NCBI GenBank assembly: GCA_021785065.1
Contig: JAJYGQ010000017.1
Coordinates: forward strand, 925 to 64,924
Source of the DNA: a bacterium
Lineage (GTDB): Bacteria > Patescibacteriota > Minisyncoccia > Phycocordibacterales > JAKAEA01
DNA length: 64,000 nucleotides
Direction of reading: 5' to 3'
The position numbers and the translations under genes are program-made. Below, piece by piece: positions 23,330 to 39,012 of this stretch. Position 1 is the first letter of the stretch; the number at the start of each line of letters is the position of its first letter. Under the pieces are notes generated by a model. It was not told the DNA's origin, made no database searches, and saw only the letters and a program-made list of their open reading frames with translations.

Positions 23330-23878
23330 TTATTGTGTGTTGGCGGCTCGAGCAACTGAAGCTACGGTGGTGGCGAGGGCAGCTCCTGAAGATAGATCAG
23401 CGGTATCTAGTGTGGGGTTCCAGAAAATATATTCAATATCGTGTTTCGCTGAGCGCCACGGGTGCTCGATGGGGCAGCCGGTCTTTTCGCTATTGCTGAT
23501 AGCGGTGTCGTGACCGATATAAAAACCGATGTGGCCGTGCATTTCGCCGCCGCCGAAATCAACTTTTTTCCACACAATGACACTGCCGACGGGCGGCTCG
23601 CTTTCTCCCGGTATCTCATGCCAGCCACTTTCTTGAAGATCTTTGATAGTGGAACCGACAGTGGCGTGCGATTTTTTTATTAATGCCAGGGCAGCGAGTA
23701 CCGAGGAAACAAAATAGGCGCAGGAAAGCTGGCCATCGCGGCCAACGTCAGTTTTAACACCGTCAACGAGAGCGTAAAAGTTGCGATACATTCGCGTACC
23801 GACGCTATTTTTTATAACGGCCAGGTAACTGTCGCGTAAGAGGAATTTGATTGAAGGCTGTTTTTGCATTCTATTCAT
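23330..23878 (-). CDS. Hypothetical protein, possibly a papain-like NlpC/P60-CHAP superfamily hydrolase
   Basis: The track ORF runs to 24028 but overlaps tRNA-Tyr; I trimmed it to the internal ATG at 23878 (MNRMQKQ). A candidate catalytic Cys (LSCAYFVSSVL) and His (GHIGFYIGHDTAIS) are arranged as in NlpC/P60 and CHAP. No signal peptide. Confidence 0.35.
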   Translation of the reverse strand: MNRMQKQPSIKFLLRDSYLAVIKNSVGTRMYRNFYALVDGVKTDVGRDGQLSCAYFVSSVLAALALIKKSHATVGSTIKDLQESGWHEIPGESEPPVGSVIVWKKVDFGGGEMHGHIGFYIGHDTAISNSEKTGCPIEHPWRSAKHDIEYIFWNPTLDTADLSSGAALATTVASVARAANTQ

Positions 23879-23893
23879 TATACTACGTTTGGG

Positions 23894-23977
23894 TGCGCAG
23901 GGAGGGATTTGAACCCCCGTAGCCCGTAGGGCGCCTGATTTACAGTCAGGTGCAATTGACCACTCTGCCACCTGCGC
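23894..23977 (-). tRNA. tRNA-Tyr (anticodon GTA)
   Basis: Reverse complement gcgcaggtggcagagtggtcaattgcacctgactgtaaatcaggcgccctacgggctacgggggttcaaatccctccctgcgca. The anticodon arm cctga-ctGTAaa-tcagg gives GTA, with a long variable arm and an intact acceptor gcgcagg/cctgcgc plus A and CC. Confidence 0.9.
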
Positions 23978-24043
23978 GTTTATACCTACACAAGCTTGTA
24001 TTCTAGTCGCAAAAGCAGTTATAATCAAGTCTATTAAAATTCG

Positions 24044-24919
24044 ATGACCTACTGCTGGCTCAATGGAAAAATTTTACCCACCGAAGAGGCGAGCGTGAAC
24101 GTGCTCGATATTGGTCTTATGCGTGGCTACGCGATTTATGAAGCGTTGACCACGTACGGTGGCAAGCCCTTTATGTTGGCTGATCATTTGCGACGATTTC
24201 GCGCATCGGCCGAGGCGATGCGTCTTGTGGTGCCCGCGAACGATACTGAAATCATCACTGCTATCGCCGAGCTCATCAAGCGCAATGGTTTTAAAGAGAC
24301 GAATGTAAAATTTGTGCTCACGGGCGGCAAAACTATTGCTGGCATAGAATACGATAGTACTAAACCGGTTTTTTATATTCTCGCCGAAGAATTTGTGCCG
24401 GTGCCGGCGAGCGTGGTCACGCAAGGCTGCAAACTTATTACTCACGAGTTTCAGCGTCAGTATCCGGGCTACAAAACCGCCAATTATATTACCGGTGTGA
24501 TGATACAGCCGGCCCGCAAAGCCGCCGGTGCGCTCGAAGTGCTGTTTACCTGGCATGGCAAAATTTCAGAATGTGCCACGAGCAATTTCTTTATCGTGAA
24601 GAGTGGCACTCTCATAACGCCGGTCCACGACATTTTGTTTGGCATTACCCGCAAGGTCGTGTTGGATTTAGCCCGGAAAAATGGCATAGCGGTGGAAGAG
24701 CGAGATGTGGCCGTAGATGAATTGGCAACTGCTGATGAAGCGCTCATCAGTTCGAGCTTTAAAGAGGTGGTGCCGGTGGTGAAGATTGATGAAAAAACTA
24801 TTGGCGATGGCCGGGTTGGACCAGTTGCTAAGAAATTGGTAACTCTTTTTCGAGATTTTTCTCATGGTGGCGCTCTTGCTTCGGATCTCAAGGTTCCAGC
24901 GGCTGCCGTTACCTCATAA
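24044..24919 (+). CDS. Class IV aminotransferase (branched-chain or D-amino-acid aminotransferase family)
   Basis: WLNGKILPTEEASVNVLDIGLMRGYAIYEALTTYGGKPFMLADHLRRFRASA fits the fold-type IV PLP enzyme N-terminal signature. Confidence 0.75.
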   Translation: MTYCWLNGKILPTEEASVNVLDIGLMRGYAIYEALTTYGGKPFMLADHLRRFRASAEAMRLVVPANDTEIITAIAELIKRNGFKETNVKFVLTGGKTIAGIEYDSTKPVFYILAEEFVPVPASVVTQGCKLITHEFQRQYPGYKTANYITGVMIQPARKAAGALEVLFTWHGKISECATSNFFIVKSGTLITPVHDILFGITRKVVLDLARKNGIAVEERDVAVDELATADEALISSSFKEVVPVVKIDEKTIGDGRVGPVAKKLVTLFRDFSHGGALASDLKVPAAAVTS

Positions 24920-24974
24920 CTTGCTTTTTTCGCTCAAATATAGTATTTTTTTCTAACAATCAAATTTTACACGT

Positions 24975-25133
24975 ATGTCCCAAGACCGACTCATAAAACT
25001 TGCCTGCCAAACCTGCAAACGCATCAACTACTGGAGCAGCAAAAATAAGCGCAAAGTAGAGCGCAAAATCGAGCTCAAAAAGTACTGTGCCTGGTGCCGC
25101 AAAAAGACCACCCACAAGGAGACGAAGAAATAG
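24975..25133 (+). CDS. rpmG: 50S ribosomal protein L33
   Basis: A 52-aa ORF below the track cutoff. MSQDRLIKLACQTCKRINYWSSKNKRKVERKIELKKYCAWCRKKTTHKETKK has two CxxC pairs and the LELKKYC..C.KHT.HKE pattern of L33. Confidence 0.8.
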   Translation: MSQDRLIKLACQTCKRINYWSSKNKRKVERKIELKKYCAWCRKKTTHKETKK

Positions 25134-25145
25134 TCGATTGTATTC

Positions 25146-26351
25146 TTGGCCGCGGCGTTCTATGATGCCGCTATGGAGCCGCTCGCTTCTAAAATTAGAC
25201 CCGCCAAGCTAGCCGACTTTGTCGGTCAGGAACATTTAGTAGGAAAGGGCAAACCGCTGGCGCTTGCTATTACCGAGCAGCATCTTTTTTCTTTTATTTT
25301 GTGGGGGCCGCCAGGGACAGGGAAGACGACGTTGGCACGGATCTACGCCAATGCGCTTGATGCTCATCTCTACGAACTTTCAGCAGTGTCGGCGGGTAAG
25401 GAGGATGTGCGGACCATTGTCGAAGACCGTAGTATTTTGGATCAGCGGCCAAAAGTTCTTTTTCTCGACGAAATTCATCGTTTTAATAAAGCTCAGCAGG
25501 ATTTTCTTTTACCGTACGTGGAGAGCGGACGGCTCACGCTGGTTGGCGCGACCACTGAGAATCCAAGCTTCGAAGTTATTCCCGCGCTTCTCTCGCGCTG
25601 TCGCGTTTTCGTGCTCAATGAATTTTCGGAGGCGGAGATGGAGAAAATTATCACCCGTGCCGCGAAAAATTTAAAAGTGAAAATCGACAAGGCCGCGCGC
25701 GACTGGCTTGCCGGTATGGCTAACGGCGATGCTCGCCAAGCTATCACCGTTTTGGAAAACGCTCACCAGCTCTACGGCGCGACACTTTCTCTTGAAGCGC
25801 TCAAAGAAACCATTCAGAGTAAATTTTTACGTTTCGATAAAAAGGGTGAAGAACACTACAACGTGATCAGTGCGTTTATAAAAAGTATGCGGGCGAGCGA
25901 CGCCGATGCCGCGCTCTATTATCTCGCTCGCATGCTCGACGCCGGCGAAGATCCGAAATTTATCGCTCGGCGGATGGTGGTGTTTGCTTCGGAAGATATC
26001 GGCTTAGCTCAGCCCACGGCGCTCGTGGTGGCTAACGACGTATTTCGCGCGGTGGAAACTATCGGCTTGCCCGAGTGCGCTATTAATCTTGCCCATGGTG
26101 TCTCATATCTGGCTGGCGCGCCAAAAGATCGCCGCTCTTATGATGCCCTGCAAGCCGCCCAAGCTGACGTTAAAAAGTATGGCAACTTGCCGGTGCCGCT
26201 GCGCTTACACAACGCACCCACTAAGCTTATGGAGGAGCTTGGCTACCACGCGGGTTACGAGAAATACAGCGCGGAAAGCTACTTACCCGAAAAACTCGCC
26301 GCACTCGGCACAAAATATCTCAAGCGCGACAAAAAGAAAAACGAAAAATAA
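25146..26351 (+). CDS. rarA: Replication-associated recombination protein A (RarA/MgsA AAA+ ATPase)
   Basis: SKIRPAKLADFVGQEHLVGKGKPL, Walker A LWGPPGTGKTTLARI, Walker B VLFLDEIHRFNKAQQD and the C-terminal MgsA helical domain. Confidence 0.85.
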   Translation: MAAAFYDAAMEPLASKIRPAKLADFVGQEHLVGKGKPLALAITEQHLFSFILWGPPGTGKTTLARIYANALDAHLYELSAVSAGKEDVRTIVEDRSILDQRPKVLFLDEIHRFNKAQQDFLLPYVESGRLTLVGATTENPSFEVIPALLSRCRVFVLNEFSEAEMEKIITRAAKNLKVKIDKAARDWLAGMANGDARQAITVLENAHQLYGATLSLEALKETIQSKFLRFDKKGEEHYNVISAFIKSMRASDADAALYYLARMLDAGEDPKFIARRMVVFASEDIGLAQPTALVVANDVFRAVETIGLPECAINLAHGVSYLAGAPKDRRSYDALQAAQADVKKYGNLPVPLRLHNAPTKLMEELGYHAGYEKYSAESYLPEKLAALGTKYLKRDKKKNEK

Positions 26352-26406
26352 AAAAGCAAGTTTTTCAAAACCGCCCTTCTCTGGTACTATGAATTCTGTT
26401 CAGTCT

Positions 26407-26478
26407 GGGCCTATAGTTTCAATGGTAAAACAGCGGTCTCCAAAACCGTAGTTCCCCGTTCGAGTCGGGGTGGGCCCG
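26407..26478 (+). tRNA. tRNA-Trp (anticodon CCA)
   Basis: gggcctatagtttcaatggtaaaacagcggtctccaaaaccgtagttccccgttcgagtcggggtgggcccg. The anticodon arm cggtc-tCCAaaa-ccg gives CCA; the T-arm is ccccg-ttcgagt-cgggg. Confidence 0.9.
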
Positions 26479-26560
26479 CAGCGAGGCGTTACTAGAAAGC
26501 GGCTGGAACCGCATTTACCGTGATATACTCTTATAATAAGATTTATTCACATATTACCAC

Positions 26561-26605
26561 ACTGTTCCAGACAGCCCGCCAGCTCGTGCGTAGCACGAAA
26601 GGTGT
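26561..26605 (+). repeat. Direct repeat copy 1 (45 nt) with hairpin core ctcgtgc-gtag-cacgaaa; upstream of the SNF2-MTase gene
   Basis: actgttccagacagcccgccagctcgtgcgtagcacgaaaggtgt matches 31376..31420 at about 37 of 45 positions. The 32-nt core gcccgcca.ctcgtgcgtagcacgaaagg.gt has two mismatches. Confidence 0.6.
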
Positions 26606-26684
26606 CAAGCCAATGACTTTTTAACTCTGGATAGACTGATAGCGGGTTACGCAGACCAGGGCCTGTATGTGTATAATGTAAAAT

Positions 26685-29600
26685 ATGGAATCTCCAGAAA
26701 AACCTTCTTCAGCAGATAATCTAAAAGATGAAGTATCCCAGGTTGAACAAGACAAGGAGATAGATAAAAAAAGTCTGGAACTTTCTCCTACGAGTGGGCA
26801 ACTAATTGGTAAGGAAGTTATAAAGCATGAATATGCCCGCGCAGATTGGAAAAACAGGCGAGAATTGTCGGATACTTTTCGTACGGGGACCGATGTGATT
26901 GATAGATTAGTGCAGGAGTATTTGGACCTGCATCCTGAGGCGAAATCAGAGGACATCGAAACAGCTAAGAAAAAAGAAACTGGCTTTGTTACTGTCTACT
27001 ATTCTCCCAAGGTGCAATCGTATCTTGAGGAAAAGTTACGAGTATCGTTGCCACCTAGTAACTGGGTACCATTCCCAATTCTTGTTGAAAAGCTGGGTAT
27101 TTCTGCTCCTACTGTTGTCAAATTAGTGAATGCTTATTCTAAAGATTTTCCGAAGATTGCTCAGACAGAAACCGGTACATACAAAGAAGAGAAGGGGCAT
27201 AGGCGGTTATTTTATTCACCTCTATTTGCTGAGTTGCTAAAAAAAGAGTTTGATAAATACCCGGCCGCACCTCAGAATTGGAAGACCCAGATGCAAATGG
27301 CCTCTGAAGAGGGTGTTGATTTCGCACGCCTAGATAAATTTTTAAAAGAGTATTCCATGCAACATTCCCAGGAAGAACATAAGGGTATGTTTCGAAATGG
27401 GCGCAATCAAGTATATGAGCATTATTCACCGCAGGTAGCTGCGTATATACATCAAGAATTACAACGGTACGAAGACACCCCTGAAGGATGGATAAATAGA
27501 AACAAACTCGCTAAAAGACTCAATGTTGTCGATGCGACCGTCCAAAGAATTATCGATAGCTACCTAGCAACCCACCCTAATTCGAAGGATGTTAAAAAAG
27601 CAAAGAGTGATAGGGGGCTGGTTCTTAATGTTTTCTCGCCCGTTATCCAAGAATATGTCGCGGCTACACTGGCTGCTTCTTTAGAAAGTCGCAATAAAGA
27701 GAAAGAACCAGAACCTTCCGCGCCAGAAGACTGGAAGATGGTCAGTGATATTGCAAGTGAGTTAAAAGTAAGCAGAGACATAGTAACAAAAACCATCAAA
27801 GAATATTTTCAGACTCATTCTGAGGAAGGTAGTAAGAAAAAATATCCTGCGACAACTTCTTGGAAGACAGGAAGTATTGTTACTAGACCCGTTGTTCATT
27901 ATTCACCAGCTGTTGTTGATTATTGTCGAACGGTAATTGAAGGCTTAAAAAGCAATATGGCTCAAGAAGGATGGTTAACAGTAAGCGATCTTCAGGAAGT
28001 TCTCGGAATATCGTGGACGACTATAAATTCGTTAATAAAAAAATACCAGACACAAAGCACGGACCCCCAGCTCCCTAAGAGACGTAGAAATCCAAGGGGA
28101 AAGATGTGGAAATATTATCCACCGGTAGTTGTAGAATGGTTAAAAAACGAGGTGGCAAAACATCCCCGTGCACCTAAAGACTGGAAAATTCTTGGCGAGC
28201 TCTCAGAGCAATTTAGTGTCTCCCAGGATACTCTCCGGCGTTTAGTCGAAAGACAGGCAGCGTTAAATCCTGACAGTGTCGTGATCAAAGAACTCAGGAA
28301 TGATCGAGGTGTTGTGTGCACCTTTTACTCACCAGAGACCATATTGCAACTCAAACAGTCTCTTGAACAGCATACTAAAGGGAAAAGTGAGCTTGAGAAC
28401 AAGTTAACAGGTCTCCTTGCAAACCCTGAAAAGGAGGAAGGTCGCAAATTCCGTGAAATGCTCGGACTCTTCGGTCCTTCTAACTTTCTAGATATACTCT
28501 ATGTCTTGCATCCAGAGTTTAGGGATCTTCCGGTAGACCATGTTAAGGGGAAATTAACAGAATATCTTGGTAACTACCTGTTAACTGCTATACCATTTTC
28601 AGTAGATGCTCTCGAGAAAAACCTACCGTCCTTAAAACAGGAAAACCTAAGACGCGGTCTTGCCGAGGTTATAAAGGGTGATTGTCTCAATTTTTATTTG
28701 CTTGAAAAAAAGCAATCGCCTCTTAGGGATGATCTTGAGATATTTCAATTGTATTTTGACGATTTAACTTCAAGGACAGCGAATAACCAAAACCTCGACC
28801 TCAATCAAGTAGTAGCAGAAGTCAGGGAATATTATCAATCAGTTACAGGTTCGTGGGTGAAACCGACAAGGATCATTGAATCCCTAAGCGCTGATAGGCC
28901 GTTCCCCGACATTTATCAGCAAATTAATCGGCAGGAAATCAAAGATAAGAAACGTCTTCTTATTGCTGACGAAATGGGGGTAGGTAAAAGCGCTTCCGTT
29001 ATTCTTGCTAAAGAATCATTGGGAGTAAAAACCGCTCTTGCTGTAGTTCCTAGTAATGTTGTTGCTACATGGGAAAAATATCTTTCTGATACTGTTGGTG
29101 ATGATGGTCGACAGCTAGGCTATTTTAAGCCCGGCCAAGCACCGAGGGTGCTTACTATACGTAGCTCTGACGATCTTATGCGTCTTAACGATGGCTATGA
29201 TTACATTCTTATTTCACAAGAACGTTTGAATGATGCGAACGCTGAGGAGCTTCAAAAACTTGATTACGGAATGCTTATTGTAGATGAAGTCCATAAACTT
29301 AAAAATGTTCGTGATGGTAAGCGAGCAAATCATCTACTAAACCTAGCCGAAAAAATAGAAGGAGATGATAAGTACTTAGTAATGCTTTCGGGTACACCTG
29401 TGCCAAATAAAGTTGAAGATGTTGCAATGCTGCTTAAACTTTTGCATCCCGACCGTTTTGCCCAGGAAGATAGTAAGCGTCTCGTAAGCGCCATTTTGAA
29501 TGGCAGTATTGTCAATATACGTTCTTTGCTCATACCGCACATGCAGATGAAAGGCTTGGCTGAACACGTAGAAATGCCAAACCTTACAGAGGCTACCATT

Positions 29601-31316
29601 TCTATTCCGTTAAGTCGCCAAGAAGAAGATATTTATCAAGTTCTTCTTGAAGAAGACGAACTCACGCCCACACAAAAACTTCAGATTCTTCGACAATTTC
29701 TTCTCAATCATCGCTTGCTAGACATCACCCCCGGTGTGCCAGAAGCAAAAATTGAAAAAACACAAGCAGAAATATCTAAAGCGTTCGAAACAAATAATAA
29801 AGTAATTTTGTTTGTGAATGATTATATTGAGGGTGTATTGAGGGGCGAAAATTCTGTCTTAAGTCAGCTTGCTCTGCCTCCGGGTGTAATAGTGCGAGCC
29901 ATTCATGGCAACACTTCTCCAGAAGAACGTCAGTCTATTCAAGAAGAACTCAACAATTCGTCCCAAAGACTGCTTTTGGCAGTAAGTGGTAATACTGCTG
30001 ATGTGGGAGTTGATTATTCAGGCGCTGAAAGAGTTTTCTTTTATAATGAACCGTGGACAAAAGCAGCCTATGAGCAACAGCTTGCACGTGTATATCGGCC
30101 GGGCGTCACTAAAGATATTCAAGCTGACATTTTTGTTACAGAAGGCACGCTTGAACAAGGTATACATCACTACGTTGAAGTAAAAAATAAAGCAATAGAA
30201 AAGTTGCTTAAAGGCATTCCTATTACCGAGCTGGAAGCAGAGCTGCTGAAAGCTAGTGAAAGAGGTGATAATACAGATCTGGATGTTAATCCTGAATTGG
30301 CCCAGTATTATTTTTCTTCTTTTGATAAGCTCAATAGGATTTTTGCCTCAGTGAAGGAAATAGGTGAAAAGAATTTTACGGAATTCCTGCAGCGACATGG
30401 TGAAGAGTATGCGGAATGCTACCTTAACCTGGGTAGCCGAAGTTATCAGTCGAACGCAAGTCGAGTATCCGCAACAGTCATCAGTGCTCTTGGGCGACAA
30501 GATGGAATTGAAAATCCTAAAATTCTGGATATTGCCTCAGGTCCTGAAATGCTCAAGAAACATTCGGGCGAAGGTTTACAGAAAAACATAACGAGTCTGG
30601 ACATTAATCCCGCACACTTCAAAGATTCAGAGGAAGGCACGACGGTAGTGGGCAGTTTTACTAAAATGCCTTTTCCGGATGGTAGTTTTGATTATACAAA
30701 CCTGTCTTTGGCATTACAATATACAAAGTTTGTACCCAGTCGAGGTGAATATGAACGTATCCGGGTTCTCAAGGAGGCGGCCAGGGTGTTAAAAACGGGT
30801 GGCAAACTGGTTCTAAACATGCCGTACTCGTTAGACTTTAAGAATTATCAAAAATTTAAAGAATTTAGTGAATTATTTGGTTTACGAGTCGTGGACGAAT
30901 ATTCAGATGAAGTACAGGTAGGTAATTCCTATCATTCTCGTGTAATAACTCTTCAGAAAGTCGAAGGCATTGATCAGAGTATTGACGAAATCATCAGGAA
31001 TATGTTTCGTGAAGACTGGGATGGTCTTAAACTTGTTCCGAAAGAAGCGCGTCTTAAGGATTCTCGTAAAATTATCTCTCAATTTAAGATAAGTAATAAA
31101 CAGCTCGATATTTCTTTTAACGAACAGGACAAAAAAATTATTGCTGAAGAAAGAGATGCTCTTGAGAAGGCTGCCGACCTCAAAGAAAAATATGGGGCAA
31201 TAGATCGCATTGATGGAGGGCAGATTCAGGAACATGGTTTTGTCCGGCTTAAGCTGGACAAGAAATACATTCTATTTAAGAAACTTTCTGATGGTAGCGT
31301 AGTGATTGTAAAATAG
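26685..31316 (+). CDS. Large multidomain protein: about seven HTH-like repeats, an SNF2-family ATPase/helicase (N and C lobes) and a C-terminal class I SAM methyltransferase (Methyltransf_11-like)
   Basis: 1543 aa. Repeats of 70-85 aa (aa ~45-560) share YSP....L......P..W......LA..L.VS..TV..LI..Y...HP. SNF2 motifs are LLIADEMGVGKSASV (I) and MLIVDEVHKLKN (II), with a helicase-C lobe (LLLAVSGNTADVGVDYSGAERVFFYNEPW, QQLARVYRPG). The MTase has ILDIASGPEML (motif I), MPFPDGSFDY (motif II) and VLKTGGKLVLNMPYS (motif III), and no DPPY/NPPY motif. The gene is about 41% GC against about 52% for its neighbours. Confidence 0.75.
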   Translation: MESPEKPSSADNLKDEVSQVEQDKEIDKKSLELSPTSGQLIGKEVIKHEYARADWKNRRELSDTFRTGTDVIDRLVQEYLDLHPEAKSEDIETAKKKETGFVTVYYSPKVQSYLEEKLRVSLPPSNWVPFPILVEKLGISAPTVVKLVNAYSKDFPKIAQTETGTYKEEKGHRRLFYSPLFAELLKKEFDKYPAAPQNWKTQMQMASEEGVDFARLDKFLKEYSMQHSQEEHKGMFRNGRNQVYEHYSPQVAAYIHQELQRYEDTPEGWINRNKLAKRLNVVDATVQRIIDSYLATHPNSKDVKKAKSDRGLVLNVFSPVIQEYVAATLAASLESRNKEKEPEPSAPEDWKMVSDIASELKVSRDIVTKTIKEYFQTHSEEGSKKKYPATTSWKTGSIVTRPVVHYSPAVVDYCRTVIEGLKSNMAQEGWLTVSDLQEVLGISWTTINSLIKKYQTQSTDPQLPKRRRNPRGKMWKYYPPVVVEWLKNEVAKHPRAPKDWKILGELSEQFSVSQDTLRRLVERQAALNPDSVVIKELRNDRGVVCTFYSPETILQLKQSLEQHTKGKSELENKLTGLLANPEKEEGRKFREMLGLFGPSNFLDILYVLHPEFRDLPVDHVKGKLTEYLGNYLLTAIPFSVDALEKNLPSLKQENLRRGLAEVIKGDCLNFYLLEKKQSPLRDDLEIFQLYFDDLTSRTANNQNLDLNQVVAEVREYYQSVTGSWVKPTRIIESLSADRPFPDIYQQINRQEIKDKKRLLIADEMGVGKSASVILAKESLGVKTALAVVPSNVVATWEKYLSDTVGDDGRQLGYFKPGQAPRVLTIRSSDDLMRLNDGYDYILISQERLNDANAEELQKLDYGMLIVDEVHKLKNVRDGKRANHLLNLAEKIEGDDKYLVMLSGTPVPNKVEDVAMLLKLLHPDRFAQEDSKRLVSAILNGSIVNIRSLLIPHMQMKGLAEHVEMPNLTEATISIPLSRQEEDIYQVLLEEDELTPTQKLQILRQFLLNHRLLDITPGVPEAKIEKTQAEISKAFETNNKVILFVNDYIEGVLRGENSVLSQLALPPGVIVRAIHGNTSPEERQSIQEELNNSSQRLLLAVSGNTADVGVDYSGAERVFFYNEPWTKAAYEQQLARVYRPGVTKDIQADIFVTEGTLEQGIHHYVEVKNKAIEKLLKGIPITELEAELLKASERGDNTDLDVNPELAQYYFSSFDKLNRIFASVKEIGEKNFTEFLQRHGEEYAECYLNLGSRSYQSNASRVSATVISALGRQDGIENPKILDIASGPEMLKKHSGEGLQKNITSLDINPAHFKDSEEGTTVVGSFTKMPFPDGSFDYTNLSLALQYTKFVPSRGEYERIRVLKEAARVLKTGGKLVLNMPYSLDFKNYQKFKEFSELFGLRVVDEYSDEVQVGNSYHSRVITLQKVEGIDQSIDEIIRNMFREDWDGLKLVPKEARLKDSRKIISQFKISNKQLDISFNEQDKKIIAEERDALEKAADLKEKYGAIDRIDGGQIQEHGFVRLKLDKKYILFKKLSDGSVVIVK

Positions 31317-31375
31317 ATCGGCTCAGTTTTGTAACTAATGTTTTTTTGTTATAATCTCTCCAATTCCGTTCTAAT

Positions 31376-31420
31376 ACTGTCGTACACGGCCCGCCAACTC
31401 GTGCGTAGCACGAAAGGCGT
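31376..31420 (+). repeat. Direct repeat copy 2 (45 nt), 60 nt downstream of the SNF2-MTase stop and about 170 nt upstream of the next gene
   Basis: actgtcgtacacggcccgccaactcgtgcgtagcacgaaaggcgt. An extended -10 tgttataat lies at about 31347-31355, just upstream. Confidence 0.6.
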
Positions 31421-31592
31421 TTGGTTAGTTAGCGCAGATGTTGAACGTCACACTTATAGCAAGTCTATTTGCATAGTGAAATTAAGTCGTTATTGTAGGA
31501 TTTATTAGGCTATTTTTTCCTATTTGTATAGGTGTTATAAAGTTTCTACGCCACTGTCATTATGAGTGTGTGGGGTAATTTTATTAAGAATT

Positions 31593-31907
31593 ATGTTTAA
31601 AAAAGCCTTATTTTTAATAGCTGTAGCAGGTTTGGTAGCGGGTACTTTTGCTGTACCTGCGGGACATATTTTAGCGTGGGGTTATTATGGTGGTTATCAA
31701 AATTATAATGGCTACCATTACTATAATGGCTACCATTATTACGGCGGCTATTACTATACGCCAATGTATTATACGTATCCATCTTGTTCGTGGAATTGTT
31801 CTTCATCCTACAATCACTACTACAATTACAACTATAACTATAACCACTACTACAACTACAACAATCATTACAATTATAACTACAACTACAATCACACGTA
31901 CTGGTAG
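31593..31907 (+). CDS. Secreted Tyr/Asn-rich low-complexity repeat protein
   Basis: The ATG at 31593 gives the signal peptide MFKKALFLIAVAGLVAGTFAVPAG; the track ORF begins at an upstream GTG at 31566. The mature part is YYGGYQNYNGYHYYNGYHYYGGYYY...NYNYNYNHYYNYNNHYNYNYNYN, encoded by in-frame hexanucleotide-like repeats (tacaac/tataac). The locus is AT-rich. Confidence 0.4.
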   Translation: MFKKALFLIAVAGLVAGTFAVPAGHILAWGYYGGYQNYNGYHYYNGYHYYGGYYYTPMYYTYPSCSWNCSSSYNHYYNYNYNYNHYYNYNNHYNYNYNYNHTYW

Positions 31908-31964
31908 TGTGGTAAAAGTAGTAAAAACTGATAGTAAAAAAATTAAACAGTCTCTAAAAAGTTT

Positions 31965-32660
31965 TTAATCAAGATTTTTTATCGCTGCTTCCATATTGCT
32001 CAGGTTAGCAAACGGCGGATAGACGACGCCGTTGACGATGAGGAAGGGCGGTGTGGTGGTGGCGGGAATAGGGGGAAGCGCGATAAGACTTTGCACGGCT
32101 ACCCAATCGTCATTGTAATTAAAGGAGTAAATGTGAGCGCCGGGATACTGCTGCTTGATGGCTTGCAAAATGTAACCCTGACCGACGCATTGGGCGCAGG
32201 TGCCGGTGGGATAGAAATATAAAATAAATGGACGCGTCGTGCTGTTGGGGATTTTGCAGTGATGGGTGATGGTCTGTTCTAAATTGTAATCTTTAATTTC
32301 CATGAGCGAATAATAGCGCTCGAGGCGGAAGAGATCGGGATTATCGGGGCCGAGCTGGCCTTGTAAAAAGGAGAGTTTACTCTGCAGATCATTGAGGCTA
32401 GCGGCGATGCTTGCAGCAGTCGTGGTGGCTGATGCGCCGGCGCTGGTGGTGGACGCGCAGAGTGAGGCGTTGAGATTGGCGGTCAAGATATCGGTTCGTG
32501 CTTGCAATGCGAGAATTTGGGTGGCAATGGCGTCCTCCTCGTTTTTGACCGCGGCAGTTTTTTGGATATTGATGTAGGTGCTGATGAGCCACGCGCCAGC
32601 AAAAATCACAATAGTGATAATGAGTGCAGCGATATAGAGTTTAATGGGGATACGTTTCAT
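31965..32660 (-). CDS. Membrane-anchored thioredoxin-fold protein with a CxxC motif (DsbA-like)
   Basis: N-terminal TM helix, a coiled-coil-like segment, then ILYFYPTGTCAQCVGQ with a CAQC active-site-like motif and downstream cis-Pro-like features. Confidence 0.45.
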   Translation of the reverse strand: MKRIPIKLYIAALIITIVIFAGAWLISTYINIQKTAAVKNEEDAIATQILALQARTDILTANLNASLCASTTSAGASATTTAASIAASLNDLQSKLSFLQGQLGPDNPDLFRLERYYSLMEIKDYNLEQTITHHCKIPNSTTRPFILYFYPTGTCAQCVGQGYILQAIKQQYPGAHIYSFNYNDDWVAVQSLIALPPIPATTTPPFLIVNGVVYPPFANLSNMEAAIKNLD

Positions 32661-32681
32661 TTCGTGCTGTGTGCATGCTAG

Positions 32682-34034
32682 CTAGAGCGCGGTGCGAGAG
32701 GTGGATGGGGCCACGGCTCGCTCACGTTGCCAGCTGGGGGTGCGAGAGCGAGCGGCGTTGTAGACAGATTTTATGAGCCAAAACGGTGCCATAAGGGGAA
32801 AGGTGAAAAAGTATAGGAAGATCGAAGGCGAGAAGCGCGAACGCTCACCGGAAAGAGCGTGCGCCTCAATGACGATGCCAATCATAAGTGCATAAATTAA
32901 AACAGTGAGGAGGAGATATGCGGGAGTGCTGACAAAAAACCAATTCCAGTGCCACGGAGAAAAGGTGAAGCCAATTGTTTCTAGACGCACTGACCACTGC
33001 CACACCATAACGCCGAAACGATAGAGTAATAGTGCGACAGAAATAACCGCGCTCAAGATGAGTGCCAAGCCAAGCGGCGCGGTAAACATCGCCATGTTGC
33101 CATAGCGCGGGCGCAATAAAATCCAGTGATAGTCGCGCAAATTCATGAGGAAACCCGAGGTCCAGCGAACGCGCTGCTTGTATAATTTCTTCACTGTGTC
33201 GGGGCCGGTGGTGTATACAACGGCGTCGTGAGCGTTTTCAATGTGCAGGTGTTTCGACTGAATGCGGAAGGCCATCTCCATATCCTCGGTATTGTGCGCG
33301 TGACGAAAGAGGCCGATGTGGGTAAAAAGGTCGCGGCGAAAAAGGGAAAACGGCCCAGGCGTCACGTAAATAGCGCCAATGAGCGACTGCACTTTTCGGA
33401 TAAAAATACCGATAAGATATTCAACGCGCTGCACAACCTGAGCGAACGTGCGTGGACGATAAATCTTCATAGCCGGTGTGACCGCGGCGGTCATATGTGG
33501 GCGGGTGCCTAAAGACGTTTGCCAATCGCCAAAATAGGGAATCATTCGCTTGAGCGCATTTGGTTCAACAAATGAATCAGCGTCGAGGCAGCCGATGATG
33601 TCGGTGGTGGTGTGTTGGATGGCGTAATTGAGAGCGGTGTATTTGCCGCCATTTTCTTTTCGGTGAGCGGCGACGATGCCGGGGTAACGTTCTTGATATT
33701 TTTGAATTACCTGCCAGGTGTTGTCTTGTGAACCATCATCGATAACGCTCACGCGTAATTTTCCGGCAGGGTATTCTAGTCGCAAGAGCGATTCAATAGT
33801 TTTACCAACAGTCGCTTCTTCGTTGTAACAGGGCACGGCGATAGTAACTGACGGGTAGCTGCGTTCGTCTGCAGCAGCATGCGCGCGAGTGCGCGCCCGG
33901 ATTTTTCGGCGATTGACGAGATACGTGCCCAAAATAAACGTTTGAAAATAAAGGCCGACAAAGAGAAACACATAAAGAATAACGGTCTGCACGGTGTTCA
34001 TAAAGGTGCTTTTTAGTATAGCAAAATAAGGCAT
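32682..34034 (-). CDS. Membrane glycosyltransferase family 2, processive type (cellulose, chitin or hyaluronan synthase-like)
   Basis: TIAVPCYNEE, VSVIDDGSQDNT (DxD), GCLDADSF and the QRVRW motif (QRVRWTSGF), plus multiple TM helices at both ends. 450 aa. Confidence 0.8.
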   Translation of the reverse strand: MPYFAILKSTFMNTVQTVILYVFLFVGLYFQTFILGTYLVNRRKIRARTRAHAAADERSYPSVTIAVPCYNEEATVGKTIESLLRLEYPAGKLRVSVIDDGSQDNTWQVIQKYQERYPGIVAAHRKENGGKYTALNYAIQHTTTDIIGCLDADSFVEPNALKRMIPYFGDWQTSLGTRPHMTAAVTPAMKIYRPRTFAQVVQRVEYLIGIFIRKVQSLIGAIYVTPGPFSLFRRDLFTHIGLFRHAHNTEDMEMAFRIQSKHLHIENAHDAVVYTTGPDTVKKLYKQRVRWTSGFLMNLRDYHWILLRPRYGNMAMFTAPLGLALILSAVISVALLLYRFGVMVWQWSVRLETIGFTFSPWHWNWFFVSTPAYLLLTVLIYALMIGIVIEAHALSGERSRFSPSIFLYFFTFPLMAPFWLIKSVYNAARSRTPSWQRERAVAPSTSRTAL

Positions 34035-35285: not shown

Positions 35286-37992
<2,707 letters not shown>

Positions 37993-38073: not shown

Positions 38074-39012
38074 ATGACTAAAAAATTCATATTTATGGCC
38101 GTTTCTTTGAGCCTTGTAGTGGGTGGTAGTTTCGCTATAGCTTCTCATAAAGTATCTGCAGACGGTTGGTATAATGGTGGAAACTATAATTGTGGTTGTG
38201 ATAACCCTGTGCCGCCAATAGTATATGCTCCACCGCCTATCTATGTTCCTCCTCCAGTTTATACGCCTATTCCTGTGGCCTATGCTCCTACTCCTGTGTA
38301 TGCTCCACCGCCAACCTATACACCACCTCCAACCTACACACCTCCGCCGACCTACACTCCTCCTCCTGTAGTGTATGCTCCTGCTCCGATATACACACCT
38401 CCGCCAGTAGTGCAGGTTGTGCAAACGGCTCCGCTGCAAGTTGTCTGTCAGGCGATCCCAGCAGTTGCGCCAATTGGTTCAACGATTACGTGGCGAGCGT
38501 ATGTGTCAGGTGGGTATGGGTACTACAATAATAATTACTCGGTGAGTTGGACGGGTACTGATGGTTTGTTAGCAAATTCTAGTACGCTTATTTCTAAGAC
38601 GTACATTACGCCCGGCCAAAAAGTAGCGACCGTCACGGTCTACCAAAATGGTCAGACTGTTACGGCAAGCTGTTCTAGCTATGTAACTGCTATTGCTCCG
38701 GCCGCGCCGATTTATACGACGCCTCCGACAGTGCCTCCGACCGGCAATCGCGTCTACCTCAATCAAGTGCCGTATACGGGTGCGGGTAGCGTTACTCGAG
38801 TTAGTCTCTTCTTGGCCTTCTTGGCGTTCTGGAGTATCTTAGTAGCCTGGATAGTTATGAAGCGTCGTCGGGCTGCGCGATTGGCTGCACTTGGTGTGGA
38901 AAATGCTCCTACTCCTCGCAGCGTGGTAGCGCCACTACAAACTTCTTCGGTGAGAATTTCAAGTGGAAACTTCCTCACCGATCACGTCAACCAGTTACGA
39001 CAAGCTCTATAA
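38074..39012 (+). CDS. Secreted Pro/Thr-rich surface protein with a C-terminal sorting-signal-like segment
   Basis: Signal peptide and PPTYTPPPTYTPPPTYTPPP repeats, then an Ig-like segment. The tail reads NQVPYTGAG followed by the hydrophobic stretch SLFLAFLAFWSILVAWIVM and KRRR, the LPXTG-like architecture, though with about 45 further residues after it. Confidence 0.5.
   Translation: MTKKFIFMAVSLSLVVGGSFAIASHKVSADGWYNGGNYNCGCDNPVPPIVYAPPPIYVPPPVYTPIPVAYAPTPVYAPPPTYTPPPTYTPPPTYTPPPVVYAPAPIYTPPPVVQVVQTAPLQVVCQAIPAVAPIGSTITWRAYVSGGYGYYNNNYSVSWTGTDGLLANSSTLISKTYITPGQKVATVTVYQNGQTVTASCSSYVTAIAPAAPIYTTPPTVPPTGNRVYLNQVPYTGAGSVTRVSLFLAFLAFWSILVAWIVMKRRRAARLAALGVENAPTPRSVVAPLQTSSVRISSGNFLTDHVNQLRQAL

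What the first reader, a model, noticed from the sequence alone, without database searches (positions are those of the whole stretch)
26685..31316. 1543-aa fusion of HTH-like repeats, an SNF2 ATPase and a small-molecule-type SAM methyltransferase on a low-GC insertion
I do not recognise this architecture. About seven 70-85 aa repeats (nt ~26820-28370) share YSP...L.....P..W.....LA..L.VS..TV..LI..Y...HP, which reads like iterated helix-turn-helix DNA-binding units. A complete SNF2 core follows (nt ~28900-30250): GVGKS Walker A, DEVH box, helicase-C and a QQLARVYRPG motif VI. Then comes a Methyltransf_11-type class I MTase (nt ~30520-30950): DIASGPE motif I, PFPDGSFD motif II and LKTGGKLVL motif III. 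Bacterial SNF2 proteins such as RapA, and SNF2 fusions on conjugative elements or in defence systems, normally pair with DNA N6-adenine MTases carrying D/NPPY; here that motif is absent. The gene is about 41% GC against about 52% for the flanking rarA, sits next to tRNA-Trp, and has a 45-nt direct repeat immediately upstream and downstream. All of this points to horizontal acquisition and possibly a single-protein defence, anti-defence or chromatin-remodelling function.
Basis: partly seen in the sequence, partly recalled or inferred. Interest (0 to 1): 0.85.

Follow-up and report, generated by a model that had tools for sequence, protein, structure and literature searches.

The report
Motor-plus-methylase giant protein of CPR bacteria
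A 1543-residue protein of an ultra-small (CPR/Patescibacteria) bacterium joins seven DNA-binding modules, a DNA-tracking motor and a methylase of the kind that normally marks ribosomal RNA. It belongs to a large family I found no paper on, and that family usually sits next to a small gene resembling a methylated-base-removing enzyme, which hints at an undescribed way of marking or attacking DNA.

Summary
ORF 26685-31316 (+) encodes 1543 aa: seven repeats, a complete SNF2 ATPase and a class I SAM methyltransferase with no DNA-amino-methylase motif. It has the lowest GC in the window, lies 205 nt after tRNA-Trp, and is bracketed by a 45-nt direct repeat.

It is not an orphan. An exhaustive search found a conserved ~980-aa C-terminal core (helical domain, SNF2, MTase, tail) in more than 230 protein clusters. 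All named sources are Patescibacteria. The N-terminal repeat arrays vary widely (0-1650 aa).

New finding: in 14 of 24 other loci a small, divergent methylpurine-DNA-glycosylase-like gene lies directly adjacent. The window copy lacks it.

Low GC is a family-wide trait, so it does not show recent insertion here. No integrase or tRNA-derived att site is present, and no close relative was available for an empty-site test.

Best reading (about 45%): a DNA-anchored, motor-coupled purine methyltransferase linked to methylpurine recognition or excision. No activity has been tested and I found no paper on the family. Its biological role, defence or epigenetic control, is open.

The parts
26407..26479 (+). 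tRNA-Trp (CCA), 205 nt upstream of the ORF. This is context, not shown to be an integration site.
   Evidence: ARAGORN. Rfam tRNA, 57 bits.
26561..26605 (+). Upstream copy of the 45-nt direct repeat. The core is 26574-26602 and contains the perfect palindrome TCGTGC-GTA-GCACGA at 26584-26598. A TATAAT box ends 23 nt upstream of the repeat.
   Evidence: No Rfam match.
26685..31316 (+). Whole ORF, 1543 aa. It is a member of the Patescibacteria SNF2-MTase family.
26844..28367 (+). Seven tandem MerR/excisionase-type winged-HTH repeats (aa 54-561). Each has a conserved Trp strand, helix, helix, beta-hairpin wing and helix.
28368..28919 (+). Conserved all-alpha 'pre-SNF2' region (aa 562-745). It consists of a 30-residue helix followed by a helical domain of about 140 aa. 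It is present in every family member and no fold match was found.
28920..30248 (+). SNF2-type ATPase/translocase core (aa 746-1188) with motifs I, II, III and VI intact.
   Evidence: Pfam. phrog_62, E 2.6e-42. PDB 1z63 Sulfolobus SNF2, E 1e-15. Motif positions.
30291..30959 (+). Three-helix lead-in plus a class I SAM methyltransferase (aa 1203-1425). In fold it is closest to nucleomethylin/RRP8.
30981..31313 (+). Conserved C-terminal alpha/beta tail domain (aa 1433-1543). Its fold is unassigned.
   Evidence: Model secondary structure. Conserved to the last residues in the family.
31376..31420 (+). Downstream copy of the 45-nt direct repeat. The core is 31389-31417. It lies 20 nt after a TATAAT box and upstream of the small Tyr/Asn-rich ORF.

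Best explanation
**What it is (shown).** An intact member of a conserved family found, among named sources, only in Patescibacteria. The family consists of giant single-chain enzymes with this layout:
- a hypervariable N-terminal array of DNA-binding modules (here seven MerR/RacA/Par-type winged helices);
- a conserved helical domain;
- an SNF2 double-strand-DNA translocase;
- a nucleomethylin/Rrp8-like class I SAM methyltransferase;
- a conserved C-terminal domain.

In most loci of the family (14 of 24) a small, divergent methylpurine-DNA-glycosylase-like gene lies directly adjacent. The window copy is a 'solo' version without it.

**How it most likely works (inferred).**
- The winged-helix array docks the enzyme on DNA, behaving as a covalent version of the head-to-tail multimers formed by small MerR-like proteins.
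- The SNF2 motor uses ATP to track along or locally distort the duplex, or to clear bound proteins.
- This gives the methyltransferase access to a purine ring nitrogen that is buried in normal B-DNA. Its relatives methylate N1 of A or N7 of G in structured RNA.
- The resulting methylpurine is then read or excised by the MPG-like partner where that partner is present.

**Biological role (speculative).** Either sequence-targeted damage of foreign DNA, a restriction-like mechanism, or a writable and erasable mark on the cell's own DNA.
For: **Family and conserved catalytic motifs.**
- Searches show the core. Walker A, DEVH, SGTP, QQxxRxxRxG, D.ASGPE and S.D.N are invariant or nearly invariant.
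- This argues that both activities are under selection.

**DNA-binding repeats.**
- Searches support the repeat fold.
- pSK1 Par bound to centromere DNA and RacA are the top structural matches.
- PMC5859096 shows that a MerR-like protein binds DNA direct repeats as a cooperative multimer.

**Motor.**
- That SNF2 enzymes are dsDNA translocases is established knowledge.

**Methyltransferase type.**
- A sequence profile hits 2zfu at E 4e-5.
- PF05148 matches 15 of 30 relatives.
- Bud23, an rRNA m7G enzyme, is among the next-best matches.
- Yeast Rrp8 makes m1A645 (PMC6085284).

**Partner gene.**
- It lies next to the gene in L006, L007, L009, L010, L012-L017, L161, L166, L167 and L168. In L017 the stop-to-stop ORF ends 158 nt from the gene; in the others the gap is under 100 nt.
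- It occurs upstream or downstream and on either strand, which argues for functional coupling.
- The L010 protein passes the Pfam PF02245 threshold (27.2 bits against 27, E 2.9e-6). The L016 protein reaches E 0.003. The L166 protein has a precomputed faint PF02245 hit.

Three of the four modules (wHTH array, SNF2, MPG-like partner) point to DNA as the substrate.
Against: - The closest characterised relatives of the MTase act on rRNA, not DNA.
- The window protein itself does not reach the PF05148 threshold (E 0.083).
- The window locus has no MPG-like gene within 64 kb, and 10 of 24 other loci lack one too.
- Only one partner protein passes the Pfam threshold. A profile of the partners does not significantly hit AAG in the PDB (E 2.1).
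- The partners are short, with a core of about 105 aa.
- The Glu-x-Tyr motif that is catalytic in human AAG (recalled from memory) is kept in only some of them.
- I know of no dedicated enzymatic DNA ring-nitrogen methylase.
- No fusion of partner and enzyme was found.
- Nothing here has been tested experimentally.
Confidence: 0.45

Rival explanations
1. Co-transcriptional rRNA (or other RNA) methyltransferase. The winged-helix array binds DNA, for example at rRNA operons. The SNF2 motor travels with RNA polymerase or displaces it, in a RapA/CSB-like manner. The Rrp8-like domain puts m1A, or a similar mark, on nascent rRNA.
For: - The nearest structural and sequence relative of the MTase is the rRNA m1A enzyme Rrp8/nucleomethylin (PMC6085284).
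- The next-best structural matches include the rRNA m7G enzyme Bud23 and Trm112-dependent RNA methylases.
- One locus (L167) lies directly after the ribosomal-protein/rpoA cluster.
- Nucleomethylin associates with rDNA chromatin in eukaryotes (recalled from memory).
Against: - I know of no rRNA methylase that needs a dsDNA motor.
- A ribosome-biogenesis factor should not have a hypervariable N-terminus of 0-1650 aa with changing repeat types.
- It should not have shifting genomic positions.
- It should not have a recurrent DNA-glycosylase-like neighbour.
- The RapA model scores 25 bits against a cut-off of 576.
Confidence: 0.2
2. This is a recently acquired single-gene genomic island inserted next to tRNA-Trp, with the 45-nt repeats as attL/attR remnants. 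It acts as a stand-alone anti-phage or anti-defence protein.
For: - It is the lowest-GC segment of the window, with GC3 of 0.33-0.36 against 0.37-0.60 in neighbouring genes.
- The flanking direct repeat is not expected by chance.
- A tRNA lies 205 nt upstream.
- There is no synteny among family loci.
- The variable N-terminal arrays look like an arms-race signature.
- The best SNF2 profile match is a phage helicase family, phrog_62, E 2.6e-42.
- Toxin-antitoxin genes lie near the gene in two loci: an AbiEii-like toxin in L161 and a PemK toxin in L163.
Against: - Low GC relative to flanks is family-wide. Gene GC tracks host GC (r = 0.66; 20 of 25 loci lower), so it is not evidence of a recent event here.
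- Only one ORF lies between the repeats. There is no integrase, recombinase or transposase.
- The repeat lies 82 nt beyond the tRNA and shares nothing with the tRNA 3' end.
- None of 15 other loci has flanking repeats.
- Each repeat copy sits just downstream of a TATAAT box and upstream of a gene, which fits a shared regulatory element equally well.
- The family is absent from 2.9 million viral contigs.
- PADLOC and NCBIfam defence models match only the generic SNF2 part, far below their cut-offs.
- Most sampled neighbours are housekeeping genes or genes of unknown function; the two toxin-antitoxin hits above are the exceptions.
Confidence: 0.2
3. Nucleoid remodeller with a protein methyltransferase. 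The motor repositions DNA-bound proteins, and the MTase methylates a DNA-associated protein such as an HU-like protein or RNA polymerase. This would resemble eukaryotic remodeller-plus-histone-methylase pairs.
For: - SNF2 enzymes are classically protein-DNA remodellers (established knowledge). PDB matches are to SWR1, INO80, ISWI and CHD1.
- Class I Methyltransf_11-type enzymes include protein methylases.
- Nucleomethylin binds methylated histone H3 (recalled from memory).
Against: - No protein methylase appears among the close structural matches. The top 60 are RNA, small-molecule and lipid methylases.
- This reading does not explain the MPG-like neighbour.
- No candidate substrate gene is linked to the family.
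Confidence: 0.1

Closest known systems
Rrp8 / nucleomethylin (RRP8; Pfam Methyltransf_8, PF05148), the eukaryotic rRNA m1A methyltransferase
   Different: - Identity is only 17-18%, and the window protein is below the Pfam threshold.
- Here the domain is fused to an SNF2 motor and a DNA-binding array, and it occurs in bacteria.
- Rrp8 is a free-standing nucleolar protein acting on 25S/28S rRNA (PMC6085284).
- The substrate here is unknown.
SNF2 helicase plus DNA methylase combinations of defence systems and mobile elements: DISARM DrmD/DrmMI, BREX BrxH/PglX, Dpd DpdE, Zorya ZorD, and large phage helicase proteins of phrog_62
   Same: An SNF2-type ATPase is combined with a SAM methyltransferase. 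The SNF2 core gives weak to moderate matches to ZorD, DpdE, DrmD and BrxH models (E 1e-10 to 1e-16) and a better one to phrog_62 (E 2.6e-42).
   Different: - Those methylases are N6-adenine or C5-cytosine DNA enzymes. Here (D/N/S)PP(Y/F/W) and PCQ are absent.
- Scores are 10 to 20 times below the equivalog cut-offs.
- None of the partner genes of those systems is nearby.
- The recurrent neighbour here is an MPG-like protein instead.
Small MerR-like winged-helix DNA binders that act as multimers: RacA, pSK1 Par, BldC and Xis/excisionase-type proteins
   Different: Here 1 to 12 such modules are covalently linked in one chain and are attached to enzymes. No DNA target is known.
Methylpurine DNA glycosylase (MPG/AAG, PF02245), and methylase-glycosylase pairs such as the PabI restriction-modification system
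   Same: The recurrent neighbour of the family matches PF02245. A methylase genetically paired with a DNA glycosylase has a precedent in R.PabI/M.PabI (PMC4615327).
   Different: - The neighbours are short and very divergent, and most fall below the Pfam threshold.
- In PabI the glycosylase attacks unmethylated sites and methylation protects. MPG enzymes remove methylated purines, so the logic would be reversed.
- The window locus has no such gene.
RapA (HepA), the bacterial RNA-polymerase-associated SNF2 ATPase
   Same: It is a bacterial SNF2 ATPase with N-terminal accessory domains.
   Different: The NCBIfam RapA model scores 25 bits against a cut-off of 576. RapA has no methyltransferase and no winged-helix array.

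Membership tests
SNF2 (SWI2/SNF2) ATPases | Pfam SNF2-rel_dom plus Helicase_C above threshold, with helicase motifs I (GxGKS/T), II (DExH), III and VI intact | tested here: met
   SNF2-rel_dom scores 64.9 bits (cut-off 24.9) and Helicase_C scores 51.1 bits (cut-off 23.5). The motifs are GVGKS at 765, DEVH at 867, SGTP at 902 and QQLARVYRPG at 1131.
SNF2 (SWI2/SNF2) ATPases | DNA-stimulated ATPase and dsDNA translocation | not testable with these tools
   This needs biochemistry.
Patescibacteria SNF2-MTase family (defined here) | End-to-end match of the ~980-aa C-terminal core: pre-SNF2 helical domain, SNF2, MTase and tail ending at the protein C-terminus | tested here: met
   In 91 of 150 representatives the alignment covers positions 40-960 or more of the 981-residue core and ends within about 25 residues of the protein C-terminus in all but one; overall identities are 33-53%. 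At least 236 clusters have E <= 1e-30. 179 full-core members were collected.
Rrp8 / Methyltransf_8 (PF05148) | Sequence match to PF05148 above the gathering score | tested here: not met
   The window protein gives E 0.083 and 13.2 bits against a cut-off of 27. 15 of 30 relatives match at E <= 0.01, with a best E of 4e-10.
Rrp8 / Methyltransf_8 (PF05148) | Fold closest to the solved nucleomethylin MTase domain | tested here: met
Rrp8 / Methyltransf_8 (PF05148) | N1-adenine methylation of large-subunit rRNA | not testable with these tools
   The activity is unknown for any member of this family.
DNA N6-adenine/N4-cytosine methylases of RM, BREX and DISARM systems | Catalytic motif IV (D/N/S)PP(Y/F/W) | tested here: not met
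   A regular-expression search of the whole protein finds none. No DNA-methylase Pfam family is among the 25 of 28 listed whole-protein hits or the hits to the C-terminal 354 aa. The one hit annotated as a DNA methyltransferase is weak: phrog_954, E 4.4e-4 on aa 1253-1378.
DNA C5-cytosine methylases | Catalytic PC(Q/H) motif | tested here: not met
   None is found.
Known SNF2-containing defence systems (DISARM DrmD, Zorya ZorD, Dpd DpdE, BREX BrxH) | Equivalog-level match and the system's partner genes in the neighbourhood | tested here: not met
   NCBIfam scores are 38-47 bits against cut-offs of 500-950. PADLOC hits cover only the SNF2 part. The window neighbours are rarA, tRNA-Trp, a Y/N-rich ORF, a glycosyltransferase and pheS.
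RapA | Equivalog match to NF003426 | tested here: not met
   25.4 bits against a cut-off of 576.
MerR/excisionase-type winged HTH | Helix-turn-helix followed by a beta-hairpin wing, with structural similarity to solved DNA-bound members | tested here: met
MerR/excisionase-type winged HTH | Sequence-specific DNA binding | not testable with these tools
   No target is known. Binding to the palindrome in the flanking repeat is only an idea.
tRNA-associated genomic island | Integrase or recombinase gene within the element | tested here: not met
   The only sizeable ORFs between the repeats are the gene itself and short antisense overlaps of it.
tRNA-associated genomic island | Flanking direct repeats derived from the tRNA 3' end | tested here: not met
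   Repeats exist, but they start 82 nt after the tRNA and do not include tRNA sequence.
tRNA-associated genomic island | Empty site in a close relative | tested here: inconclusive
   The closest rarA homologues in metagenomes are 76% identical or less and share no synteny. The window contig is not in the gene-position index.
SNF2-MTase plus MPG-like gene pair (defined here) | MPG-like (PF02245-related) small gene adjacent to the SNF2-MTase gene | tested here: not met
   It is absent from all six frames of the 64-kb window. It is present in 14 of 24 other loci.

The most novel reading that the evidence does not exclude
The family, together with its MPG-like neighbour, is a new kind of programmable DNA alkylation and base-excision system.
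- A variable array of winged helices selects target DNA.
- An SNF2 motor feeds the duplex to an Rrp8-like enzyme that methylates purine ring nitrogens (for example N1-A, N3-A or N7-G) in DNA.
- A dedicated mini-glycosylase then removes the marked bases.

The outcome would be either destruction of foreign DNA, which is restriction by enzymatic alkylation, or an erasable epigenetic mark in organisms with very small genomes. Distant homologues in DPANN archaea would extend this to the other great group of ultra-small episymbionts.
Probability: 0.2. Interest if true: 0.9.

Novelty: new variant of a known kind. Interest (0 to 1): 0.65.

Why it matters
CPR/Patescibacteria make up a large share of bacterial diversity, and many of their proteins have no assigned function. 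This family is one of their largest conserved proteins. It is conserved across at least three classes of the group. It combines a eukaryote-style remodelling motor with a methylase whose closest relative is a nucleolar enzyme.

If the methylase acts on DNA, it would be the first dedicated enzyme I know of that writes a ring-nitrogen methylpurine into DNA. Its pairing with an MPG-like protein would define a new logic for restriction or for reversible DNA marking. The modular winged-helix arrays (1-12 copies) could also be of interest as a natural, possibly programmable, DNA-recognition scaffold.

If it acts on rRNA instead, it would show a DNA motor coupled to ribosome modification, which would also be unexpected.

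Tried and rejected
**Searches that gave nothing or misled.**
- The word-index protein search with the single sequence found only the protein itself and suggested an orphan. The exhaustive search corrected this.
- An exact look-up of the protein's contig found nothing on record. The cluster has one unnamed NCBI member.
- Rfam over 24000-34000 found only the tRNA.
- tblastn against 50,697 phage genomes matched only the SNF2 part, at 22-25% identity.
- The IMG/VR scan with the family profile found no full-length member. The repeat motif is also absent there.
- The afdb50 fold library was unavailable.
- Five literature searches found no paper on the family.

**Empty-site test.** A metagenome scan with RarA gave 80 loci at 76% identity or less. 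None shares any neighbour with the window, so the test failed.

**Flanking repeats.** I looked for flanking repeats in 15 other loci and for the motif in the 160 loci held at the time. Neither was found. The repeat is therefore lineage-specific and not a property of the family.

**RNA folding of the repeat regions.** This gave no significant stability (z -0.05 and -1.3).

**Promoter/terminator scan.** This was not above shuffled expectation.

**MPG-like neighbours.**
- A profile against PDB sequences was not significant.
- A third database search found only 11 relatives, mostly unnamed.
- No fusion with the big protein was found.
- None lies next to the archaeal homologue.

**Considered and rejected.** Membership of DISARM, BREX, Zorya, Dpd or RapA, because scores are far below the cut-offs and no partner genes are present.
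Full report
**1.

The ORF 26685-31316 (+) encodes 1543 aa.

Seven tandem repeats of 65-89 aa span aa 54-561. Each has a conserved Trp at its start and a Y/F-S/P-P motif near its end. A repeat HMM refined on the family finds exactly seven copies in this protein.

Pfam places SNF2-rel_dom at aa 754-993, Helicase_C at aa 1026-1140 and Methyltransf_11 at aa 1281-1377. All three are above their curated cut-offs. There is no (D/N/S)PP(Y/F/W) or PC(Q/H) motif anywhere.

The gene has 40.9% GC, against 51.8% for rarA and 47.8% for the rest of the window. It is the lowest-GC 4.6-kb stretch in the window.

tRNA-Trp lies at 26407-26479.

A 45-nt direct repeat, 84% identical with a 29-nt core matching at 28 of 29 positions, brackets the gene at 26561-26605 and 31376-31420. 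These are the only two copies in the window, and none is expected by chance.

**2. What the parts are**

*The repeats.* An AlphaFold2 model of aa 430-760, built with 56 relatives, has mean pLDDT 92.8.
- It shows two identical repeat units. Each has a short strand at the conserved Trp, an 8-residue helix, a 14-residue helix, a beta-hairpin and a 12-residue helix.
- The repeats are therefore MerR/excisionase-type winged helices.

*The pre-SNF2 region.* After the repeats come a 30-residue helix and an all-alpha domain of about 140 aa (aa 562-745). The region is conserved across the whole family but matches no known fold specifically.

*The SNF2 core.* It matches a phage helicase family best (phrog_62, E 2.6e-42). 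In the PDB the best match is the Sulfolobus SNF2 core 1z63.

*The C-terminal part.* A second model covers aa 1190-1543 (pLDDT 91.3, pTM 0.90).
- It shows three helices, a class I methyltransferase fold and a C-terminal alpha/beta domain.
- Foldseek independently ranks the same entry first (E 6e-10, TM 0.74). Its E-value is about 200 times lower than that of the next hit.
- A family profile hits 2zfu by sequence at E 4e-5.
- Half of the relatives tested match Pfam Methyltransf_8, the Rrp8 family (15 of 30, best E 4e-10).
- The window protein itself does not reach that threshold (E 0.083).
- Yeast Rrp8 makes m1A645 of 25S rRNA (PMC6085284).
- The next-best structural neighbours include Bud23, an rRNA m7G enzyme, and Trm112-dependent methylases.

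The domain therefore belongs to the group of class I enzymes that methylate purine ring nitrogens in structured RNA. 'Small-molecule type' is less precise than this.

**3. It is a family, not an orphan**

The word-indexed search returned only the protein itself. An exhaustive phmmer search of 1.84 billion representatives with aa 344-1543 returned 230 proteins at E <= 1e-30.
- In 91 of the best 150, the alignment covers at least positions 40-960 of the 981-aa core (window aa 563-1543).
- In all but one of these (P0094) the core ends within about 25 residues of the protein C-terminus.
- A profile search found 236 clusters at E <= 1e-30 among the 8000 candidates scored.
- Sources name them only 'SNF2-related protein', 'methyltransferase domain-containing protein' or 'hypothetical'.
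- The named sources are Saccharimonadia, Levybacteria, Roizmanbacteria, Paceibacterota and 'Patescibacteria group'. Contigs reach 1.1 Mb.

In one genome per species of GTDB, 17 full-length loci were among the best 80 kept.
- Twelve are labelled as Patescibacteria-type MAGs or simply 'bacterium'.
- Five carry a 'Gammaproteobacteria' label that I did not verify.

All catalytic motifs of both enzymes are invariant or nearly so.

The N-terminal extension is the opposite of conserved.
- Its length ranges from 1 to 1647 aa, with a median of 441.
- 95 of 179 members carry 1-12 copies of the winged-helix repeat.
- Others carry different repeats: P0038 and P0080, HNH_repeat, and OST-HTH in the precomputed lists.

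More distant SNF2-plus-Methyltransf_11 proteins also exist. One is in a Micrarchaeota (DPANN) MAG, at 25.5% identity over the SNF2 and MTase parts.

No full-length member was found on 2.9 million viral contigs. I found no paper describing the family.

**4. Context and a recurrent partner**

The window neighbours are housekeeping genes: infB, a cysteine desulfurase, clpB, an aminotransferase, rarA, pheS, gyrB, thrS and dnaE.

The 17 other loci share none of these neighbours. The gene usually stands alone among unrelated genes such as a pilin, a MurA-like enzyme, a histidine kinase, TPR proteins and ribosomal proteins. The exceptions are toxin-antitoxin genes: a weak AbiEii hit in L161 and a PemK toxin in L163.

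Clustering all flanking ORFs exposed one recurrent neighbour. It is a small protein with a conserved core of about 105 aa.
- It lies directly upstream on the same strand in L007, L009, L010, L013, L015 and L017.
- It lies directly downstream on the opposite strand in L006, L012, L014 and L016.

In seven further independent loci, fetched through exact protein look-ups, it is again adjacent in four: L161, L166, L167 and L168.

Overall that is 14 of 24 loci. In L017 the stop-to-stop ORF ends 158 nt from the big gene. In the others the gap is under 100 nt. The position and strand vary.

Evidence that the neighbour is MPG-like:
- The L010 protein passes the Pfam threshold for Pur_DNA_glyco, the methylpurine DNA glycosylase family (27.2 bits against 27, E 2.9e-6).
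- The L016 protein reaches E 0.003.
- The L166 protein has a precomputed faint hit to the same family.
- The remaining proteins are tied to these by HMM and phmmer matches.

The assignment is moderate rather than strong.
- A profile of the ten proteins does not significantly hit AAG in the PDB.
- The Glu-x-Tyr motif that is catalytic in human AAG (recalled from memory) is kept in only part of the set.

The window has no such gene in any frame.

**5. Was it inserted here?**

Evidence in favour:
- The composition is deviant. GC3 is 0.33-0.36, lower than that of every neighbouring gene.
- A tRNA is nearby.
- The gene is flanked by a direct repeat.

Evidence against treating this as proof:
- Across 25 loci the family gene is lower in GC than its flanks in 20. 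The mean difference is -0.032 (Wilcoxon p = 0.0013). Gene GC still tracks host GC (r = 0.66). Low GC is therefore a trait of the family and not a sign of a recent event in this genome.
- Only one real ORF lies between the repeats. There is no integrase.
- The repeat begins 82 nt after the tRNA and shares nothing with it.
- No other locus has flanking repeats.

Each repeat copy lies 20-23 nt downstream of a TATAAT box and upstream of a + strand gene. Each contains a perfect palindrome, TCGTGC-GTA-GCACGA. This fits a shared operator or 5' leader as well as it fits an att remnant.

The decisive test would be an empty site in a close relative. It could not be run. The nearest RarA homologues in the metagenome collection are 76% identical or less and share no synteny.

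I rate recent site-specific insertion at about 20%.

**6. How it most likely works**

*Shown:*
- a DNA-binding-type array;
- an intact SNF2 motor;
- an intact SAM methylase of the Rrp8 structural class;
- strong purifying selection on the core;
- rapid turnover of the N-terminal array;
- a frequent, tightly linked MPG-like neighbour.

*Inferred:*
- The array docks the enzyme on DNA. Small MerR-like proteins such as BldC bind direct repeats as head-to-tail multimers (PMC5859096), so a covalent chain of seven such modules is a plausible equivalent.
- The motor translocates on the duplex or distorts it.
- This exposes a purine ring nitrogen to the methylase.
- The MPG-like partner, where present, recognises or excises the product.

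Three of the four modules point to DNA. The methylase's own relatives point to RNA. I therefore give the DNA-methylpurine model 0.45 and a co-transcriptional rRNA/RNA methylase model 0.20.

The rRNA model does not explain the hypervariable N-terminus, the patchy distribution or the glycosylase-like neighbour.

A protein-methylase remodeller gets 0.10.

Whether the biological role is conflict with foreign DNA or regulation of the cell's own DNA cannot be decided from sequence.

**7. Comparison with known systems**

It works like an SNF2-plus-methylase module of the kind known from DISARM, BREX-associated helicases and large phage or plasmid proteins. It is not a member of any of them.
- Equivalog scores are 10-20 times below the cut-offs.
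- PADLOC matches only the SNF2 part.
- The catalytic motifs of DNA methylases are absent.
- The partner genes of those systems are absent.

It is not RapA either (25 bits against a cut-off of 576).

Its methylase is a structural relative of Rrp8/nucleomethylin but fails the sequence threshold for that family.

A methylase paired with a glycosylase has a precedent in the PabI restriction system (PMC4615327). The logic there is opposite.

**8. Verdict**

The window gene is one intact member, lacking the partner, of a widespread family. That family has only generic database names, and I found no publication on it.

I rate it a new variant of a known kind, namely SNF2-methylase fusions. There is a minority chance that the family together with its MPG-like neighbour is a categorically new DNA alkylation and excision system.

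**Limits.** All functional statements are inferences from sequence, predicted structure and gene neighbourhood. Counts of loci come from capped searches. Some MAG taxonomic labels were not checked.

Noticed in passing
window 31593-31907 (+): A small ORF directly downstream of the gene. It has a signal-peptide-like N-terminus followed by an extreme Tyr/Asn/Gly-rich repeat region (YNYNYNH...). The DNA shows 12-18-nt periodic repeats. There is no Pfam hit. The second copy of the 45-nt repeat lies in its upstream region.
   Followed up: partly
window 26584-26598 and 31399-31413: A perfect palindrome, TCGTGC-GTA-GCACGA, lies inside both copies of the direct repeat. Each copy is 20-23 nt downstream of a TATAAT box. 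This could be an operator or a 5' leader hairpin shared by the two adjacent genes. It is not in Rfam, in the 160 loci held at the time, or in IMG/VR.
   Followed up: partly
L006, L007, L009, L010, L012-L017, L161, L166, L167, L168 (for example L010 2833-3225, L014 5114-5425, L166 9090-9482): Small, divergent methylpurine-DNA-glycosylase-like genes lie immediately adjacent to the SNF2-MTase gene in 14 of 24 loci. They occur on either side and on either strand. None is present in the window.
   Followed up: yes
L018 9260-12421: A Micrarchaeota (DPANN archaea) MAG encodes a 1053-aa SNF2 plus Methyltransf_11 protein. It is 25.5% identical to the family over the motor and methylase parts. It has no MPG-like neighbour.
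   Followed up: partly
L009 6056-12976; L013 3183-8455: In two loci the N-terminal repeat array and the core are split into several consecutive ORFs. These could be frameshifts in repeats, assembly errors or genuine splitting.
   Followed up: no
L161 253-1181: A DUF6922 gene and an AbiEii-like toxin gene lie three and four genes upstream of the family gene in a Roizmanbacteria-type contig. A PemK toxin gene near the family gene in L163 is the only other toxin- or defence-related neighbour seen.
   Followed up: no
window 38074-39012 (+) and 37297-37992 (+): A 312-aa protein has TPPPxY proline-rich repeats and a C-terminal membrane anchor. It lies next to a 231-aa ORF that I took for a sortase from its sequence but did not scan. 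This may be a surface-protein and sortase pair.
   Followed up: no
window 23330-24028 (-): An ORF with a weak CHAP/NlpC-P60 hit overlaps tRNA-Tyr (23892-23977) at its listed 5' end. The true start codon is probably further downstream.
   Followed up: no
L004, L005, L010, L015, L017: Five MAGs that carry the family gene are labelled 'uncultured Gammaproteobacteria'. One contig is 928 kb. The labels may be wrong and were not checked.
   Followed up: no
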